Below, in pieces: positions 1-5,197 of a stretch of 5,197 nt of DNA; within the stretch, counting starts at the first letter, position 1; each line of letters begins with the position of its first letter. The notes beneath the pieces were generated by a model. The model searched no databases, was not told the origin of the DNA, and worked only from the letters and a program-made list of their open reading frames with translations. The DNA lies in the IMG/VR virus record IMGVR_UViG_2778261360_000011, positions 1 to 5,197 of that record; one strand, written 5' to 3'. The translations under genes were made by a program, and so were the position numbers. Origin of the DNA: a virus. Its lineage: Duplodnaviria; Heunggongvirae; Uroviricota; Caudoviricetes.

Positions 1-291
1 GAAGCAGAAAAAGCTTATTATGCTTCCATCGGAAACGATGATCTGGCAGCCTGAGTTCACAGATAAAATACTCTCCAGGAAACCCGGGGCGGTTCATCTT
101 TCGTAGCCAACTACTATGATGCGCTTGGAAACTACATCCGCAATCTTCGTGACCCGTCACGCCCACAGGATGCAGCAACAAAGAGTTATGTTGATGGGGT
201 TGCAGAAACAAACCTGAGCAGAACGCTACGAACTCCAGAACCGATATCAACTTTACCAGGCGTTGAGCAACGTAAGAATAAGATTGTTGCA

Positions 292-1815
292 ATGGATGAT
301 TCAGGAGACCCAATCATGGTTCTCCCGGAATCTGGGAGCGCTACTGATGTCATGTTGCAGCTTGCTGCCACCGATGGGTTTAAAAATATCGGTTCCTGCC
401 CTGATGTGGCCACATTAAGAAATACTGAACCTTCGTCAGTAAACCAGCAAATTATTGTCAGAGGTTATTATAGCGATACCCCCGGTCTTGGAGGTGGGGT
501 GTTCATGTCGTTTGGCAGTTCTGAAGCTGACGATGGTGTGAATATTTTTGTTACCCCCGGAGGTAAGCGCTGGAAGCGAACAGGAAGCCACATCGATATT
601 CCGGTAGAGAATGGCGGCATGATGGTGTCTAGGACGGCTGAGCAAAACAGTGAAGCCTTTGAACGTCTGACCGCATGCCTTCCATATGAAGGAGGTACGC
701 TCAGGCTCAATGGATTTTACGATATTAAGTATGGCGCTATCGTGCCTCCACGTGTCACGCTGGAGGGGTGCGGTATGGATTCCTGTGGATTAATTAAAAC
801 AGGTAACGATATTAAAACCGTTCCGGATCGCATGTGGCAGGGTGTACCACACAGCTTCTCCAAAGACTTTATTGTTGCGGTAGATATGGATAGTGACACA
901 TCAGGTGATTTAAGCGGGACACAAACAAGAAGCACCAGAATAATTGGATTGAGTATTCTAAATACTGCGCCAAATCCTTGTGATTACGGGATATATAGCG
1001 CTATCAGTTACAATGTGCGCCTTCAGGACCTGTATATTCATAGGGTGAAAACCGGTTATCGCACTAGTGATAGCTGGTTGCAGACATGGGCAAACATTAC
1101 TATTCAGGATGTCGTTACTGGAGTTAAAATCGAAGCAGGTGGAACCACATATAATTTAAACAATATTTATGTGAAAACATGTTCAGGTGTTGGATTCGAT
1201 CTTAAAAATCCGACATATAGCACAATGACAGGATGCGCTGTGGATTTTGCAAATGGAACCGCATATAAATTTGTGGATTGCACCGGGATTGTGTTAGATG
1301 GTTGTGGGTGCGAAGAAATAACAGGGACACAGATATATGCTCGGGGTTCTAGAATTTGTATTAATGGTTTTAGAGGGGTAAATCCAAAGAAAGGAGATGC
1401 AGAATCTTTTATACTTGATTCATCTGTAATTAATTTAAACTCATCTTATCTTCCTGATTATGTTGGAGGTGGTACAGATAAATACACCAAGATAAATGCG
1501 GCGGTGATAAATTCGAATAACTCTATATTTCCTGACCATGCAAACAATAAAATCACATGGGGCGGTGTTCAATCCATAATTAATATTCATGATGAAAGAG
1601 GTGGATACTCAGTAACAGGAAATTCAACGTATACTGTTCTTGGGAGGGTTGAGGGAGGGGTGATTACAATACTCTCTCTACTGCCACCTACGGGAGATGC
1701 TAATTTTTACCCAATTGGTACAAGGTGGGAGTTACTGTATCCATCGGCTGTAGGTCCGTACAAATGGATTTTGTTAGCGGATAAAATTTGGCGTGTTGCA
1801 GGATCATCATCGTAA
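292..1815 (+). CDS. Phage tailspike / tail-fiber receptor-binding protein, beta-helix type (probable polysaccharide-binding or depolymerase domain); 5' end unresolved
   Basis: ORF track 292-1815 (507 aa), stop TAA 1813-1815. Translation has the repetitive N/G/T/I-rich pattern typical of right-handed parallel beta-helix tailspike domains (e.g. NLNNIYVKTCSGVGFDLKNPTYSTMTGCAVDFANGTAYKFVDCTGIVLDGCGCEEITGTQIYARGSRICINGFRGVN), with an N-proximal GGGVF motif. Context fits: directly upstream of an O-antigen-modifying acyltransferase. ATG 292 has no Shine-Dalgarno sequence, and the same frame is open and protein-like back to position 67 (NYYDALGNYIRNLRDPSRPQDAATKSYVDG...) with no ATG/GTG/TTG, so 292 is probably not the true start. 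Confidence 0.7.
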   Translation: MDDSGDPIMVLPESGSATDVMLQLAATDGFKNIGSCPDVATLRNTEPSSVNQQIIVRGYYSDTPGLGGGVFMSFGSSEADDGVNIFVTPGGKRWKRTGSHIDIPVENGGMMVSRTAEQNSEAFERLTACLPYEGGTLRLNGFYDIKYGAIVPPRVTLEGCGMDSCGLIKTGNDIKTVPDRMWQGVPHSFSKDFIVAVDMDSDTSGDLSGTQTRSTRIIGLSILNTAPNPCDYGIYSAISYNVRLQDLYIHRVKTGYRTSDSWLQTWANITIQDVVTGVKIEAGGTTYNLNNIYVKTCSGVGFDLKNPTYSTMTGCAVDFANGTAYKFVDCTGIVLDGCGCEEITGTQIYARGSRICINGFRGVNPKKGDAESFILDSSVINLNSSYLPDYVGGGTDKYTKINAAVINSNNSIFPDHANNKITWGGVQSIINIHDERGGYSVTGNSTYTVLGRVEGGVITILSLLPPTGDANFYPIGTRWELLYPSAVGPYKWILLADKIWRVAGSSS

Positions 1816-1822
1816 AAATTAA

Positions 1823-1850
1823 TTGCCAAATTTAAATATACAGCTATTAT
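1823..1850 (+). promoter_or_regulatory. Candidate sigma70-type promoter for the acyltransferase gene
   Basis: TTGCCA at 1823-1828, a 16-nt spacer, then TATTAT at 1845-1850, about 30 nt upstream of ATG 1881 in the 65-nt gap after the tailspike stop. The region is very AT-rich, so a chance match is quite possible. Confidence 0.25.
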
Positions 1851-1880
1851 TTTGCACAATACTATGCATAGGTGCAAAAA

Positions 1881-2855
1881 ATGGATGAGAAAGTAATCAA
1901 TATTAGGGCCGTAGCTGCTATTATGGTTGTAGTTCTTCATATTAATTCGCAGTATTTTTATGACATTACGAGCTACTGGCCTGTTTTCGCTTTGATTGGT
2001 TCAGCAATGCGGCCATGCGTGCCTATTTTTATAATGATTTCAGGGTATTTATTGATAGGAAGAGTTATCAGTTCAATTGATTTTATGAAGAGAAGAATAT
2101 CAAGACTTCTTCCTCCAATATTATTTTGGGGGGTGTTTTATGTTTTTTTTGTATCATTTGTTGGAAACGCACAAGTTTCAATAAATTCACTCATGTCAAT
2201 ATTAATTGATCCTCCAATGTTTCATCTATGGTATCTTTATTTGATTGTTGGCGTTTATCTCATGATGCCTATTTTATCATCTTGGTATTTGTCGGCATCA
2301 TTTGGTGATAAGATTTTTTATATTTCGCTTTGGTTTGCATGCCTGCTTGTTGCTCAGTTTGGCCTTGGTGTTGAAATTATAAATAGATATTATCTTGGTC
2401 AATTTTCAACATACTCGTTTTATTTAATAGTGGGTGCTTTTGTTAAGGAAATTTCATTTAAGTACAATGTAAGATGGTCTGTTCCAAGCATGGTTTATAT
2501 TCTAATTACATTACTAATAACAACTCTTACGATTTATGACTGTTATAATAATGGAGCGCCGTCAGAGAAGTATTATGAATACACAAATCCAATGGTTGTT
2601 CTTCAATCAATATTTCTATTTATGGCGTTAATTAAGCTTAACAAATCAAATTGGTTTACAAAAGTTGTTTCAAATTATTCCCTTGGAGTTTATTGTGTTC
2701 ATGTTGCGATAATATTACTAATATTCCCTACAATAAAGACAACAATAGATAATGCATTCCTTTCATACTTTGCATCTATTTCTTTAGTTCTGATCTCATC
2801 AGTTATAATTAGCTCAATTATCAGATTGGTTCCTTTTATAAAAAGTGCATCGTGA
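1881..2855 (+). CDS. Acyltransferase family 3 (AT3) integral-membrane O-acyltransferase, probable phage-encoded O-antigen acetylase (serotype conversion)
   Basis: ORF track 1872-2855. ATG 1881 is preferred over GTG 1872 because AGGTG at 1869-1873 sits 7 nt upstream of it. The protein is strongly hydrophobic with about 10 predicted membrane-spanning segments. It carries an N-terminal R-x10-H motif (NIRAVAAIMVVVLH) and an xSGY/F motif (FIMISGYLLIG), both characteristic of AT3 acyltransferases such as phage O-antigen acetylases. It has no C-terminal SGNH domain. GC is roughly 25-32% in lines I counted by hand, far below the flanking lysis genes (about 53%). Confidence 0.85.
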   Translation: MDEKVINIRAVAAIMVVVLHINSQYFYDITSYWPVFALIGSAMRPCVPIFIMISGYLLIGRVISSIDFMKRRISRLLPPILFWGVFYVFFVSFVGNAQVSINSLMSILIDPPMFHLWYLYLIVGVYLMMPILSSWYLSASFGDKIFYISLWFACLLVAQFGLGVEIINRYYLGQFSTYSFYLIVGAFVKEISFKYNVRWSVPSMVYILITLLITTLTIYDCYNNGAPSEKYYEYTNPMVVLQSIFLFMALIKLNKSNWFTKVVSNYSLGVYCVHVAIILLIFPTIKTTIDNAFLSYFASISLVLISSVIISSIIRLVPFIKSAS

Positions 2856-3109
2856 GTGCTTTAGTTGCATGAGACAAAAGCGGGACACACAAGGCTTTGC
2901 ATTGGTAACTGAATCCTCTGTACCTATCACATTGTCGTGGCACCTTACAAAGTTAGGCATCAAAAGCCACGTCATAGCTATGGAGCCAGAAAACACCTCA
3001 CCTATTCAGAATGTTTTTAGGGATTTCAATTAAACCATATATGTATTAATTGTGTATGATGGACTCACCAACTAAGGTGGGTCTTTATGCACAGTAAACG
3101 GTGGTTTCT

Positions 3110-3514
3110 ATGTCAGTTCAACTAACCAGTGAAACATTAAATCAATGGCTTAGTCTTGGTTCTCTAGCTGCGGTGATAGCAGGAGTACCTCCAGAAGTAG
3201 CGTTGGGGTCTTTGTCAGGAGCGGTAATTTTTGTTACCTCTGCGGTAGAGTACCCAATTAGTCGTCGCGTACTCTTGTCGATGCTTAGCTTTCTCTGTGG
3301 GCTTCTTTTCTACAAACCAGCAGCATCAATTCTTATAGGCGTAGCTAGCCTGATCCCTACTATCACGCAGGACTCTTTCGAGAAAGGGGTTGTTTTCTCT
3401 GCTGGCGCATTCGTGTCAGCAATCGTCGCAGTACGAATTGGCATCTGGCTCTATCACCGTTCCGATAATCCACGTGAGTTAATTCCGGGGAGAAAAGACG
3501 ATGGCAACGTATGA
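3110..3514 (+). CDS. Small multi-pass membrane protein (134 aa), putative holin-like, antiholin or lysis-accessory protein
   Basis: ORF track 3101-3514 (GTG start). ATG 3110 is preferred because GGTGG at 3100-3104 sits 5 nt upstream. Four to five hydrophobic segments (WLSLGSLAAVIAGV, ALGSLSGAVIFVTSAV, VLLSMLSFLCGLLFY, AASILIGVASLIPTI, VVFSAGAFVSAIVAVRIGIWLY) and a charged C-terminus ([19 protein letters not shown]). Its stop (TGA 3512-3514) overlaps the next gene's start by 14 nt. Function is inferred from position and topology only. Confidence 0.5.
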   Translation: MSVQLTSETLNQWLSLGSLAAVIAGVPPEVALGSLSGAVIFVTSAVEYPISRRVLLSMLSFLCGLLFYKPAASILIGVASLIPTITQDSFEKGVVFSAGAFVSAIVAVRIGIWLYHRSDNPRELIPGRKDDGNV

Positions 3515-3809
3515 GCTTTTTTTTCTTATCACCAATGCAGTTATTTGTACTGGCATAGCAATTCGCGTTGTCACATTTCGGCGTAACGGGTCACAACACC
3601 GAAGATGGGGAGGGTGGCTTGCTTATTTCCTGATTGTTGCTGCGGCCAGTATTCCTGTTCGTGTCGCCTATGCAATCTGGTTACGCACGCCAATGGCTGT
3701 GGATTTATCTGAGGTCATTATCAACGCTGTCATGCTCGCTGCGGTTATTAAAACGCGCGGTAACGTCGTTCAAATTTTCAAAGTATCGAGGTCTAAACAT
3801 GGAGATTAA
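3501..3809 (+). CDS. Putative holin (102 aa, 2-3 transmembrane segments, basic C-terminal tail)
   Basis: ATG 3501 is preceded by GGGGAG at 3487-3492 with an 8-nt spacer. Hydrophobic segments [42 protein letters not shown] and [19 protein letters not shown], a basic loop ([11 protein letters not shown]) and a charged C-terminus (KVSRSKHGD). It lies immediately upstream of the endolysin and overlaps its start by 11 nt. Confidence 0.65.
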
Positions 3810-4344
3810 ACAATTCCAGCGAGCTGCTGGTATTAGCGAGGCGCTGGCCGCACGCTGGTTTCTGCATATCACTGCTGCCATGAATGAGTTTGGCATTATC
3901 AAACCAGATGACCAGGCGATGTTTATCGCGCAGGTCGGGCATGAGTCCGGAGGATTTACCCGGTTACAGGAAAACTTCAACTACAGCGTTAATGGACTGT
4001 CCGGGTTTATCCGTGCCGGACGCATCACGCCGGACCAGGCCAGCACGCTGGGACGAAAAGCATATGAGAAGTCTCTGCCTCTGGAGCGCCAGCGTGCGAT
4101 CGCCAATCTGGTGTACAGCAAACGCATGGGGAACAATGCCCCTGGTGATGGCTGGAATTACCGAGGGCGCGGACTTATCCAGATTACCGGTTTGAATAAC
4201 TATCGTGATTGCGGAAACGGCCTGAAGGTTGACCTGCTGGAGAGCCCTGAACTGCTGGCGCAGGACGAATATGCGGCTCGTAGCGCGGCGTGGTTCTTCG
4301 CCAGCAAAGGATGCATGAATATACCGGCGATATTGCACGTGTAA
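3799..4344 (+). CDS. Endolysin, glycoside hydrolase family 19 (class I chitinase-like lysozyme); as encoded the ORF is 3'-truncated by an apparent -1 frameshift
   Basis: ATG 3799 with GAGG at 3788-3791, 7 nt upstream. The 236-aa ORF 3634-4344 in the track is an upstream extension artefact that overlaps the holin out of frame. The protein has GH19 hallmarks: GHESGG with the likely catalytic Glu at residue 49, a second Glu nine residues later (LQENF), [12 protein letters not shown], and AAWFFASKG. There is no signal peptide or signal-anchor-release (SAR) segment. The frame ends at TAA 4342-4344 (181 aa), but the conserved GH19 C-terminal block ([18 protein letters not shown]...KVLAV) is encoded in the next frame from 4323 to TGA 4425-4427. 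Confidence 0.85.
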
Positions 4345-4423
4345 CTCTGATTATCAATGGTGGCCGGAACGGCATCGACGACCGGCGCGCGCGGTACATC
4401 ACTGCCAGTAAGGTGCTGGCGGT

Positions 4424-4906
4424 ATGATCTGGGCATTCGCAAAAGCATACTGGAAACAGTTGGTTATCATGGCGATGCTTGCTGTTCTGGTCATATCAGG
4501 AGTTGTAGCCTGGAATGCACACGGCAGTCGTCAGTACGATGCCGGGTATGCGCAGGCGAAGAAAGACCGCAAAGCTGAAGATGAGATAGTTCGTCAGCAC
4601 TACGAACAGGAGAAATCGATCAATGAACGTGAAGCGCAGCATAGGATCGACCAGGCGCGCAATGATGCTCTTGATGCTGCCGCTCGCGCTGGCCGGTTGC
4701 AGCAACAGCTCGTTGCCATCCGTGAGCAGCTCAGGCACTATAACGCCATTGTCGGCGCTGGGTCGTCAGCCGCAGACACCGGAGTTTTGCTTTCCGACGT
4801 GTTCAGCAAATCTCTCGAGAGAAATAGACAACTGGCAGAGTATGCTGACCGGGCATCCGAAGCCGGAAGAGTCTGCGAAAAACAGTACGACACCCTGACC
4901 AGATAG
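4424..4906 (+). CDS. Rz-like inner-membrane spanin (i-spanin)
   Basis: ATG 4424 is the first start after the in-frame stop at 4409-4411, with AAGGTG at 4410-4415 upstream. N-terminal transmembrane segment (LVIMAMLAVLVISGVVAW) followed by a long charged, coiled-coil-like periplasmic region rich in Q/R/E/A (RIDQARNDALDAAARAGRLQQQLVAIREQLR) and a C-proximal Cys. It sits last in the lysis cassette. Confidence 0.8.
   Translation: MIWAFAKAYWKQLVIMAMLAVLVISGVVAWNAHGSRQYDAGYAQAKKDRKAEDEIVRQHYEQEKSINEREAQHRIDQARNDALDAAARAGRLQQQLVAIREQLRHYNAIVGAGSSAADTGVLLSDVFSKSLERNRQLAEYADRASEAGRVCEKQYDTLTR
4623..4898 (+). CDS. Rz1-like outer-membrane lipoprotein spanin (o-spanin), fully embedded in the +1 frame of Rz
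   Basis: ORF 4623-4898 lies entirely inside the Rz gene in the +1 frame. AGGAG at 4607-4611 precedes ATG 4623. Signal peptide with a lipobox (MMLLMLPLALAG-C, then Ser at +2), and a Ser/Pro/Thr-rich mature part. Alternative starts are the ATGs at 4662 and 4665. Confidence 0.7.
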   Translation: MNVKRSIGSTRRAMMLLMLPLALAGCSNSSLPSVSSSGTITPLSALGRQPQTPEFCFPTCSANLSREIDNWQSMLTGHPKPEESAKNSTTP

Positions 4907-5062
4907 CATGGCATTTTTCACGGTACTGATTTCCGGTGACGGTATATAAAACGGTACGGGAAAAATTGAGATTTGGAAAAATGTTATCACTCAATTGGTT
5001 ATGGTTATCGTAAATAATTGAGTGGGAATGATTTGACCCTGCACTATGAATGAAATAAATAT

Positions 5063-5086
5063 CCTCCGGCATAGCCGGAGGTTTTT
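5063..5086 (+). terminator. Rho-independent (intrinsic) terminator downstream of the lysis cassette
   Basis: Perfect 8-bp GC-rich stem (CCTCCGGC at 5063-5070 pairing with GCCGGAGG at 5074-5081), a 3-nt loop, then TTTTT at 5082-5086. An A-rich tract (AAATAAAT) precedes the stem, so it could also terminate transcripts from the opposite strand. Confidence 0.75.
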
Positions 5087-5197
5087 CAAATGCGCCTATA
5101 AGGCTCTCTTACCAGCCGCGCCCTAACAGGCGCACACGATCTGACATTTGCATCCAACTTCGTTACTTACGGCCCGTAAACGGGCTGCCCGGATAGG

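What the first reader, a model, noticed from the sequence alone, without database searches (positions are those of the whole stretch)
1816..2855. Phage-borne AT3 acyltransferase: candidate serotype-conversion and superinfection-exclusion function
The protein carries the R-x10-H and xSGY/F motifs of AT3 acyltransferases and has no SGNH domain. In this context (a phage, next to the tailspike) that is the arrangement known for O-antigen acetylases of serotype-converting phages. By analogy, acetylating the O-antigen would change host serotype and could block adsorption of the same phage by masking the tailspike's receptor. The substrate and position acetylated cannot be read from sequence. The gene has its own 65-nt upstream gap with a possible promoter, which would suit expression from the prophage state.
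Basis: partly seen in the sequence, partly recalled or inferred. Interest (0 to 1): 0.6.

Follow-up and report, generated by a model that had tools for sequence, protein, structure and literature searches.

The report
Prophage O-antigen acetyltransferase beside tailspike
This is an intact membrane acetyltransferase gene sitting right behind the tailspike gene of a decayed E. coli prophage, most likely acetylating the cell's O-antigen so that phages with that tailspike can no longer attach – a well-known kind of phage trick, here in a new and rare gene variant.

Summary

New points:
- The window is a contig bounded by IS ends. The prophage is defective (IS in the tailspike, 1-nt deletion in the endolysin), yet the AT3 is intact.
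- Tailspike receptor-binding domain plus AT3 (382-2905) is one low-GC cassette, 95% identical in P22-like prophages. It probably moved from a P22-like phage into this epsilon15-like one.
- The AT3 is a distinct, rare lineage: 29% identity to phiV10 Oac, 28% to WecH, absent from 5,426 complete E. coli genomes.
- Unlike Sf6, phiV10 and epsilon15, it is co-directional with the tailspike.

Substrate, serogroup and promoter activity remain unknown. Verdict: new member of a known kind, modest interest.

The parts
1..96 (+). 3' end of an IS3-family (IS1203/IS629-like) element. The transposase C-terminus stops at 52-54 and the terminal inverted repeat ends at 96. The element interrupts the tailspike gene at about codon 128/129 of 700.
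   Evidence: Megablast hits at 95-99% to thousands of IS1203-annotated copies. All epsilon15-like relatives align only from position 95. Stops occur in all three forward frames before 105.
97..1815 (+). Tailspike gene remnant. Positions 97-381 are the epsilon15-type anchor part and 382-1815 the receptor-binding domain. The first remaining in-frame start is ATG 292.
   Evidence: 99.3% aa identity to residues 129-700 of the intact 700-aa tailspike of L002. Tail fibre/tailspike PHROG hits. The anchor is 61-77% identical to phiV10.
382..2905 (+). Mobile cassette made of the tailspike receptor-binding domain, the 65-nt gap, the AT3 gene and 50 nt of P22-like int-proximal spacer.
   Evidence: 95.2% identical over 2524 nt to P22-like prophages L013-L017, and 96.6% to IMG/VR contig L023. 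Identity falls to about 20% (random level) outside it. GC is 42% (RBD) and 32% (AT3) against 48-52% in the backbone.
1816..1880 (+). Intergenic gap holding a sigma-70-like site (TTGCCA 1823-1828, 16-nt spacer, TATTAT 1845-1850) and a Shine-Dalgarno AGGTG at 1870-1874.
   Evidence: 10/12 match; sequence. The gap is 98.5% identical in the P22-like cassette. It is not alignable as a promoter in Buttiauxella. Promoter function is untested.
1881..2855 (+). Stand-alone AT3 (acyltransferase-3) membrane protein of 324 aa and 10 TMH. It is the candidate O-antigen O-acetyltransferase.
2856..2905 (+). 50-nt tail of the cassette, homologous to the spacer next to intS in P22-like prophages at argW.
   Evidence: 86% identity to L013, 85% to VE-T9 (L022) and 78% to the APEC-O117H42 remnant (L021), each lying between the modifier gene and intS.
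3048..3095 (+). Long hairpin just upstream of the lysis genes. It is the counterpart of the site annotated as an RNase III processing site in epsilon15.
   Evidence: RNA fold. The epsilon15 record has protein_bind 'RNaseIII' at L026 4506-4568, which maps to about window 3040-3102. Conserved in phiV10, epsilon15, L018-L020.
3110..4906 (+). Lysis cassette: holin-like membrane protein (3110-3514), holin (3501-3809), GH19 endolysin (3799-4344, truncated by a 1-nt deletion near 4319, normal end about 4428) and Rz (4424-4906) with embedded Rz1 (4623-4898).
   Evidence: Pfam and PHROG hits. The frameshift is shown against L004, L002 and phiV10.
5055..5197 (.). End of an IS200C element, which marks the contig end.
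   Evidence: 97% identity to IS200C-annotated copies in more than 2500 E. coli genomes. All prophage relatives stop aligning at 5054.

Best explanation
The gene encodes a stand-alone AT3 (TmAT-fold) inner-membrane O-acetyltransferase that modifies the host's O-antigen.

Proposed mechanism:
- Acetyl-CoA binds from the cytoplasm in the pore lined by R9/H20 (TMH1), F50/G55 (TMH2), R72/R75 (TMH3), G185 (TMH6) and S267/Y271 (TMH9).
- The acetyl group is passed to a sugar hydroxyl of the O-unit or polymer on the periplasmic face, before ligation to lipid A-core.
- The modified O-antigen is no longer bound or cleaved by the tailspike encoded immediately upstream. A lysogen, or a cell that keeps only this remnant, therefore changes O-antigen subtype and resists phages carrying that receptor-binding domain.

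The gene and the receptor-binding domain form one horizontally mobile cassette.

Shown here: family, fold, motifs, topology, position, cassette linkage, purifying selection and retention in decayed prophages.

Inferred: acetyl-CoA as donor, O-antigen as acceptor, blocking of the cognate tailspike, and expression in the lysogen.
For: Family and fold:
- PF01757 full length, E 7e-40. PHROG O-acetyltransferase.
- All conserved TmAT/AT3 residues are present and conserved across 57 homologues (definitions in PMC9833829 and PMC12423673).
- AF2 pLDDT 93, pTM 0.91, 10 TMH plus the short re-entrant helix between TMH3 and TMH4.
- Positive-inside count is 10 against 3 for an N-in/C-in topology.

Context:
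- It occupies the same slot as phiV10 oac and the epsilon15 conversion genes. Sf6 has tailspike-oac-int.
- phiV10 oac alone acetylates the O157 antigen and abolishes phage binding and plaques (PMC11854483).
- Other E. coli epsilon15-like and P22-like prophages carry other AT3 genes or gtrABC behind related tailspikes. [quoted passage not shown]

Linkage:
- RBD plus AT3 is 95% identical as one block in P22-like and epsilon15-like backbones that are otherwise unrelated.
- In Buttiauxella a frameshifted remnant of the same tailspike type precedes an intact 59%-identical AT3.

Selection:
- dN/dS is 0.21 against the P22-like copy and 0.09 against Buttiauxella (dS saturated).
- The AT3 has no amino-acid changes among four epsilon15-like copies, while this prophage has an IS in the tailspike and a frameshifted endolysin.
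Against: - There is no experimental evidence for this protein.
- It is not an orthologue of any characterised O-antigen acetylase. Identity is 29% to phiV10 Oac, and only 78 N-terminal residues align with Sf6 Oac. It is equally similar (28%) to the chromosomal YiaH/WecH, which acetylates ECA.
- NCBIfam has no model that names it.
- The host O-serogroup could not be determined. The nearest phage tailspikes (55% identity, Salmonella Kuttervirus STML-13-1) have no specificity known to me.
- The promoter is only a consensus match in AT-rich DNA.
- The gene is co-directional with the late operon. No terminator separates it from the tailspike gene or from the lysis genes, so its expression pattern may differ from Sf6 and phiV10.
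- The Xenorhabdus homologue (45-47% identity) sits behind a non-homologous protein, so the RBD-AT3 linkage is not universal.
Confidence: 0.75

Rival explanations
1. The AT3 acylates a different envelope glycan rather than the O-antigen. Candidates are enterobacterial common antigen (as WecH does), a group 1/4 capsule or K antigen, colanic acid or osmoregulated glucans. The tailspike it travels with may then target that glycan.
For: - It is 28% identical over 283 aa to the Salmonella YiaH/WecH orthologue, the same level as to phiV10 Oac.
- AT3-only proteins act on many acceptors (PMC9558356).
- Tailspike-like depolymerases can target capsules. The weak PDB sequence hits to the tailspike's N-terminal part include capsule depolymerases.
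Against: - ECA is invariant, and E. coli already has wecH. That does not explain pairing with a hypervariable receptor-binding domain.
- The slot carries O-antigen modifiers in epsilon15, phiV10, Sf6 and P22-type phages.
- Uetake- and Lederbergvirus RBPs are described as O-antigen specific (PMC10408124).
- The PDB hits cover only the conserved N-terminal linker, not the catalytic beta-helix.
Confidence: 0.12
2. The gene acts mainly in the lytic cycle, not as a lysogenic-conversion gene. It is co-transcribed with the tailspike from the late promoter and modifies the receptor on the dying cell, so that released progeny are not trapped on debris or on already infected cells. The upstream promoter-like site would then be fortuitous.
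For: - The gene is co-directional with the tailspike gene and 65 nt behind it, with no terminator-like structure in the gap. In Sf6, phiV10, epsilon15 and VE-T9 the modifier is convergent, and in Sf6 and epsilon15 it is insulated by annotated terminators.
- Promoter-like sites are not above chance in this region.
- No terminator was found between the AT3 and the lysis genes, which argues against strong constitutive transcription in a lysogen.
Against: - The AT3 stays intact and under purifying selection in prophages that can no longer make virions: this window (IS-cut tailspike, frameshifted endolysin) and the Buttiauxella remnant. That requires expression and benefit outside the lytic cycle.
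- The best promoter match of the 1.6-kb scan lies in the gap, correctly placed ahead of the Shine-Dalgarno sequence.
- The two roles are not mutually exclusive.
Confidence: 0.08
3. In this particular genome the gene is a silent passenger of a decaying prophage and has no phenotype.
For: The prophage is defective. The gene is rare: 23 contigs carry the exact protein, and none of 5,426 complete E. coli genomes carries it.
Against: The ORF is intact, with all catalytic motifs and no amino-acid change from copies in intact prophages. dN/dS is well below 1. Two independent decayed loci keep the AT3 while losing the tailspike.
Confidence: 0.05

Closest known systems
Oac of Escherichia phage phiV10 (Uetakevirus; YP_512280)
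   Same: - It lies in the same phage genus backbone and the same slot between the tailspike and the holin genes.
- It is a stand-alone AT3 of similar size (338 against 324 aa).
- It is the closest characterised phage homologue (29% over 299 aa, E 4e-24).
- Its function is known: it acetylates the O157 antigen and blocks phiV10 adsorption.
   Different: - It is only 29% identical, so it is not an orthologue.
- phiV10 oac is on the opposite strand, convergent with the tail fibre gene. The window gene is co-directional.
- It is paired with a different receptor-binding domain (O157-specific in phiV10).
Oac (OacA) of Shigella phage Sf6 (Lederbergvirus)
   Same: - It has the arrangement tailspike - AT3-only acetylase - integrase. 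The 97%-identical copy of the window's gene has the same arrangement in P22-like prophages.
- It shares the R-x10-H, SG[YF] and RxxR motifs and the 10 TMH.
- Acetylation blocks the phage's own endorhamnosidase tailspike (PMC9558356).
   Different: - Only the first 78 residues align (40%, E 2e-6).
- Sf6 oac is convergent, with its own annotated promoter and terminator.
WecH/YiaH, the chromosomal AT3-only ECA O-acetyltransferase of Enterobacteriaceae
   Same: It belongs to the same AT3 sub-branch. Identity is 28% over 283 aa (E 3e-22), with similar length and topology.
   Different: It is a chromosomal housekeeping locus (glyQS-yiaH-yiaB-xylB), not phage-borne and not linked to a tailspike. Its acceptor is ECA GlcNAc (PMC9558356).
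Serotype-conversion modules of epsilon15 (gp21 O-antigen polymerase, gp22 alpha-polymerase inhibitor) and gtrABC of P22-like phages
   Same: They occupy the same genomic position, directly after the tailspike gene. The logic is the same: the prophage alters the O-antigen its own tailspike recognises.
   Different: The chemistry differs (polymerase linkage change or glucosylation rather than acetylation), and the proteins are unrelated.
OafA/OafB (Salmonella AT3-SGNH O-antigen acetyltransferases; OafB of prophage BTP1)
   Same: They share the AT3 membrane domain with the same conserved residues. OafB acetylation protects against the BTP1 tailspike (PMC9558356; PMC9833829).
   Different: OafA and OafB have an 11th TMH and a periplasmic SGNH domain that performs the final transfer. 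The window protein ends after TMH10 and has no SGNH partner in the cassette.

Membership tests
Acyltransferase-3 (AT3, PF01757) / TmAT superfamily | Significant full-length match to the Pfam Acyl_transf_3 profile above the gathering score | tested here: met
   137.5 bits against a cut-off of 31, E 7e-40. Residues 7-311 match profile positions 6-325 of 326.
Acyltransferase-3 (AT3, PF01757) / TmAT superfamily | R/K-X10-H motif in TMH1, described as absolutely conserved and essential (PMC9833829) | tested here: met
   R9 and H20 both lie in TMH1. H20 is invariant and R9 at least 90% conserved in 57 homologues.
Acyltransferase-3 (AT3, PF01757) / TmAT superfamily | RXXR motif at the cytoplasmic face of TMH3 | tested here: met
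   R72-I-S-R75 lies at the cytoplasmic start of the TMH3 helix 65-95.
Acyltransferase-3 (AT3, PF01757) / TmAT superfamily | Other conserved acyl-CoA-site residues: TMH2 FxxxxG, TMH6 Gly and TMH9 SxxxY (PMC12423673) | tested here: met
   F50-IMIS-G55, G185 (invariant) and S267-LGV-Y271 (Y271 at least 90% conserved) are present.
Acyltransferase-3 (AT3, PF01757) / TmAT superfamily | Asp three residues before the TMH1 Arg (DxxR). This is family-typical but not essential. | tested here: not met
   The sequence is I6-N7-I8-R9. The 57-sequence consensus has DxxR, and phiV10 Oac has E-L-I-R. The window clade (E. coli, Buttiauxella, Xenorhabdus) has N-I-R. I treat this as a clade-specific variation, because the papers report only R and H as essential.
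Acyltransferase-3 (AT3, PF01757) / TmAT superfamily | [quoted passage not shown] | tested here: met
Acyltransferase-3 (AT3, PF01757) / TmAT superfamily | Acyl-CoA-dependent transfer of an acyl group to an extracytoplasmic glycan | not testable with these tools
   This needs biochemistry.
Stand-alone ('AT3-only') architecture | No 11th TMH and no fused SGNH domain | tested here: met
   The protein is 324 aa, the Pfam match reaches residue 311, and there is no second domain. No SGNH hit occurs in any ORF of the window.
Phage-encoded O-antigen O-acetylase / serotype-conversion module (Sf6 Oac, phiV10 Oac type) | Encoded by a temperate phage or prophage directly next to the tailspike/RBP gene, in the genus's conversion slot | tested here: met
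   The order is tailspike - 65 nt - AT3 - lysis genes. The slot is the same as phiV10 oac and epsilon15 gp21/22. P22-like copies have tailspike - AT3 - int, as in Sf6.
Phage-encoded O-antigen O-acetylase / serotype-conversion module (Sf6 Oac, phiV10 Oac type) | Orthology (close sequence relationship) to an experimentally characterised O-antigen acetylase | tested here: not met
   Identity is 29% to phiV10 Oac, 40% over only 78 aa to Sf6 Oac, and 28% to the ECA acetylase WecH. It is the same family but a separate lineage.
Phage-encoded O-antigen O-acetylase / serotype-conversion module (Sf6 Oac, phiV10 Oac type) | Transcription independent of the late operon (own promoter, usually convergent and insulated by terminators), allowing expression in the lysogen | tested here: inconclusive
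   A 10/12 sigma-70-like site lies at 1823-1850, but such sites are not above chance there. The gene is co-directional, and no terminator was found on either side. Retention of the intact gene in defective prophages argues indirectly for expression.
Phage-encoded O-antigen O-acetylase / serotype-conversion module (Sf6 Oac, phiV10 Oac type) | O-antigen becomes O-acetylated and the cognate phage or tailspike no longer adsorbs | not testable with these tools
   This needs LPS NMR/MS and adsorption assays. The only computational support is co-inheritance of RBD and AT3.

The most novel reading that the evidence does not exclude
The tailspike receptor-binding domain and the AT3 form a single 'recognise-and-mask' cassette that moves as a unit between unrelated podovirus lineages. 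Here the move was from a P22-like phage into an epsilon15-like one, and it dragged along 50 nt of P22-type int-proximal spacer. Because the AT3 is co-directional with the tailspike, it could be expressed both from its own promoter in the lysogen and from the late operon during lysis. After the prophage decays, the host keeps the AT3 as a stand-alone anti-phage and serotype gene. The AT3 would then define a so far undescribed O-acetyl variant of an E. coli O-antigen. It would also show that an AT3-only enzyme needs no co-transferred partner protein.
Probability: 0.4. Interest if true: 0.45.

Novelty: new member of a known kind. Interest (0 to 1): 0.3.

Why it matters
If the function is confirmed, three things follow.
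- It adds another phage-borne O-antigen acetylase to the few characterised ones (Sf6, SfII, phiV10). It would reveal a cryptic O-acetyl variant of an E. coli O-antigen, which matters for serotyping, glycoconjugate vaccines, and phage or tailspike-based typing and therapy, because lysogens would escape phages with that tailspike.
- The tight co-transfer of receptor-binding domain and acetylase gives a simple computational handle for pairing tailspikes with the modification that defeats them.
- The minimal cassette has no partner gene. That bears on the open question of how AT3-only enzymes work without an SGNH domain (raised in PMC9558356).

None of this overturns current understanding.

Tried and rejected
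- NCBIfam gave no hit, so no curated subfamily name is available.
- A sequence search of the PDB returned only noise, namely GABA-receptor TM helices at E > 0.05. No AT3 membrane domain appears to be solved, so I relied on fold comparison instead.
- Foldseek against BFVD viral models was uninformative, with one unnamed hit.
- The afdb50 library was unavailable.
- The genome-contig scan found only the Xenorhabdus copy. The viral-contig scan found only one P22-like copy.
- I could not infer the host O-serogroup.
  - The AT3 is absent from all 5,426 complete E. coli genomes even with distant blastn.
  - The draft assemblies that carry it are held only as 10-21 kb loci.
  - The closest phage tailspikes (55% identity, Salmonella Kuttervirus STML-13-1) have no stated specificity.
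  - APEC-O117H42 carries two prophages with related RBDs (56-68% aa), but paired with other modifiers. That is too distant to transfer a serogroup.
- Promoter conservation could not be tested. Close copies are nearly identical, and the Buttiauxella and Xenorhabdus gaps do not align.
- A Dam/OxyR-type phase-variation switch, as in gtr/oafB, is rejected. There is only one GATC upstream, at about 1802.
- GTG 1872 is rejected as the start, because the N-terminus is conserved from ATG 1881 and the Shine-Dalgarno spacing fits.
- The terminator-like hits at 2111-2133 and 2250-2269 lie inside the T-rich ORF, and I regard them as chance.
- ORF 2845-3033 (62 aa) has no family hit and is not conserved outside the epsilon15-like copies. 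I do not consider it a gene.
Full report
**What the window is.** The 5,197-base window is the tail and lysis end of an epsilon15/phiV10-type (Uetakevirus-like) prophage of E. coli.
- Megablast against phage records matches phiV10 and epsilon15, but only over the tailspike 5' part and the lysis genes.
- Draft E. coli assemblies carry the same region at 97-99.5% identity over window 95-5054. In them the prophage ends next to yfgI/yfgF/ppx/ppk.
- The window's two edges are not phage DNA. Positions 1-96 are the 3' end of an IS3-family IS1203/IS629-like element, and positions 5055-5197 are an IS200C end.
- The window is therefore a short assembly contig broken at repeats. In this genome the IS cuts the tailspike gene at about codon 128 of 700.
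- The GH19 endolysin also carries a 1-nt deletion near 4319 relative to L004, L002 and phiV10. This truncates it from 209 to 181 aa.
- The prophage is thus defective. The AT3 protein is nevertheless identical in sequence to the copies in intact relatives.

**Check of the observation.** ORF 1881-2855 (+) encodes 324 aa.
- The start at ATG 1881 is supported by AGGTG 6 nt upstream, by the conserved MDEK.. N-terminus in homologues down to 45-47% identity, and by gene calls in 23 contigs.
- The Pfam Acyl_transf_3 match is full length (137.5 bits against a cut-off of 31). PHROG 3333 'O-acetyltransferase' also matches.
- There is no SGNH domain in the protein or in any neighbouring ORF.
- The gap to the tailspike stop is exactly 65 nt. 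It contains TTGCCA-16-TATTAT at 1823-1850, the best match (10/12) of the 1.6-kb scan. Such matches are not more frequent than in shuffled sequence, so the promoter remains a possibility only.

**Family membership.** The literature defines AT3 proteins by four things: an essential R/K-X10-H in TMH1, RXXR at the cytoplasmic face of TMH3, a 10-TMH core, and further acyl-CoA-site residues (TMH2 FxxxxG, TMH6 Gly, TMH9 SxxxY) (PMC9833829; PMC9558356; PMC12423673).
- All are present: R9/H20, F50..G55, R72/R75, G185 and S267..Y271. In an alignment of 57 homologues H20, G55 and G185 are invariant, and R9, F50 and Y271 are at least 90% conserved.
- An AlphaFold2 model built on that alignment is confident (pLDDT 93, pTM 0.91). 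It shows ten membrane helices plus the short re-entrant helix between TMH3 and TMH4 described for OafB.
- Lys/Arg counts are 10 on the predicted cytoplasmic side and 3 on the periplasmic side, which fits the N-in/C-in topology found experimentally for Sf6 Oac.
- The only departure is the lack of the Asp of the family-typical DxxR. This clade has N-I-R instead.

**Genomic context.** The position between the tailspike and the first lysis gene is the serotype-conversion slot of this phage genus.
- epsilon15 carries an O-antigen polymerase and the alpha-polymerase inhibitor there.
- phiV10 carries oac there. Expression of phiV10 oac alone modifies the O157 antigen and prevents phiV10 binding and plaque formation (PMC11854483; PMC9558356).
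- Other E. coli prophages of the same type carry a 367-aa AT3 (APEC17), a 322-aa AT3 on the other strand (APEC-O117H42), or nothing (E7). Each comes with a different tailspike C-terminal domain, while the N-terminal about 290-320 residues stay 65-73% identical.
- In P22-like prophages, related receptor-binding domains are followed by yet another AT3 (VE-T9) or by a gtrABC-type operon (APEC-O117H42 remnant).
[quoted passage not shown] The kind of system is therefore known.

**The cassette.** The 97%-identical protein P0001 lies in P22-like prophages at argW. The order there is P22 head-binding tailspike, then the AT3, then intS, with the same 65-nt gap.
- DNA identity between these prophages and the window is 95.2% over 382-2905 and drops to about 20% (random level) outside it. 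Within the block it is 94% for the RBD, 98.5% for the gap and 97% for the AT3.
- The block is low in GC: 42% for the RBD, 25% for the gap and 32% for the AT3, against 48-52% for the phage backbone.
- Its last 50 nt (2856-2905) also match the spacer next to intS in other P22-like prophages that carry different modifiers (L022, L021). The cassette therefore most likely entered the epsilon15-like backbone from a P22-like phage.
- On the left, the window is 98% identical to the APEC-O117H42 epsilon15-like tailspike up to about 497. This overlaps the start of the P22-like homology at 382 and marks a conserved linker where the crossover probably occurred.
- In Buttiauxella gaviniae a frameshifted remnant of the same tailspike type (66-78% aa) precedes an intact 59%-identical AT3. 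A second tailspike-like remnant and an AT3 fragment follow it.
- In Xenorhabdus the 45-47%-identical AT3 again ends a P22-like prophage, but behind a non-homologous protein.

**Selection.** dN/dS for the AT3 is 0.21 against the P22-like copy (16 synonymous and 12 non-synonymous differences) and 0.09 against Buttiauxella (dS saturated). For the RBD it is 0.23. The ORF is kept intact in two independently decayed loci, this window and Buttiauxella. Together these argue that the gene is functional and useful to the host outside virion production.

**Most likely mechanism (inferred).** Acetyl-CoA enters the TmAT pore from the cytoplasm. The acetyl group is transferred on the periplasmic face to a sugar of the O-antigen. 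The acetylated O-antigen is no longer a substrate or ligand for the linked tailspike. The carrier cell then changes O-antigen subtype and resists superinfection by phages with that receptor-binding domain. The steps shown here are family, fold, motifs, topology, position, linkage and selection. The donor, the acceptor, the blocking effect and expression in the lysogen are inferred from Sf6, phiV10 and OafB.

**Differences from the known examples.**
- The protein is a separate lineage: 29% identity to phiV10 Oac, 28% to the ECA acetylase WecH/YiaH, and only 78 alignable residues with Sf6 Oac. Sequence alone cannot name the acceptor.
- It is rare. The exact protein was found in 23 contigs and the 97% variant in 19. 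It is absent from 5,426 complete E. coli genomes even by distant blastn.
- It is co-directional with the tailspike gene, whereas Sf6, phiV10, epsilon15 and VE-T9 have convergent modifier genes.
- No terminator-like structure separates it from the tailspike gene or from the lysis genes. The only strong structure downstream is the hairpin at 3048-3095, which corresponds to the site annotated as an RNase III site in epsilon15. How transcription from a constitutive AT3 promoter would be kept out of the holin genes is unexplained.

**Rivals.**
- A different glycan acceptor (ECA, capsule) is possible given the WecH similarity. It fits poorly with pairing to a hypervariable receptor-binding domain and with the content of this slot in related phages.
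- A mainly lytic-cycle role is suggested by the orientation. It does not explain retention in defective prophages.
- A silent passenger gene is unlikely given the conservation.

**Verdict.** This is a new, rare member of a known kind, namely phage-borne stand-alone AT3 O-antigen acetylases placed behind the tailspike. It has an unusual orientation and a clear case of joint transfer of tailspike domain and acetylase between two podovirus lineages. Interest is modest at 0.3.

Noticed in passing
window 1-96: The left edge is the 3' end of an IS3-family IS1203/IS629-like element (transposase stop at 52-54, terminal repeat ending at 96). It is inserted in the tailspike gene at about codon 128 of 700. 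That is why all three forward frames hit stops before 105 and why the tailspike ORF in the window starts only at ATG 292.
   Followed up: yes
window 5055-5197: The right edge is an IS200C end (97% identical to annotated copies in more than 2500 E. coli genomes). Homology to all prophage relatives stops at 5054. The true prophage/host junction therefore cannot be read from this contig.
   Followed up: partly
window about 4319 (endolysin 3799-4344): There is a single-base deletion (ATGAA-TATACC against ATGAAGTATACC in L004, L002 and phiV10). It frameshifts the GH19 endolysin, truncating it from 209 to 181 aa. It is not in a homopolymer run, so it is probably real rather than a sequencing error. 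This is a second inactivating lesion in the prophage.
   Followed up: yes
window 3048-3095: A hairpin with a stem of about 20 bp lies just upstream of the first lysis gene and is conserved in epsilon15-like phages. It corresponds to the feature annotated 'RNaseIII, mRNA processing' in the epsilon15 record. It has no U-tract, so it is not an intrinsic terminator.
   Followed up: partly
window 2856-2905: The 50 nt after the AT3 stop match the spacer next to intS of several P22-like prophages at argW (L013, L022, L021). This is a footprint suggesting the cassette came from a P22-like phage.
   Followed up: yes
L010 (Buttiauxella gaviniae) 8802-12921: Two tailspike-remnant/AT3 units lie side by side in the chromosome near sbcB/dacD. 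The first is a frameshifted tailspike remnant plus an intact AT3 (59% to the window). The second is a tailspike-like remnant (36-52% aa) plus a truncated AT3 on the other strand.
   Followed up: partly
L018 (APEC17) against L020 (E7): Two E. coli epsilon15-like prophages at the same site have 81%-identical 765-aa tailspikes. One has a 367-aa AT3 behind the tailspike and the other has none. This is a natural presence/absence pair that could be used to test the effect of such AT3 genes.
   Followed up: no
L019 and L021 (E. coli APEC-O117H42): One strain carries two prophage tailspikes whose receptor-binding domains are related to the window's (56% and about 68% aa). One is in an epsilon15-like prophage with a minus-strand AT3. 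The other is in a P22-like remnant with a gtrABC-type operon.
   Followed up: partly
window 4623-4898: An embedded Rz1-like lipoprotein ORF lies in the +1 frame inside Rz (…LALAGCSN… lipobox-like), matching the annotated Rz1 of phiV10 and epsilon15.
   Followed up: no
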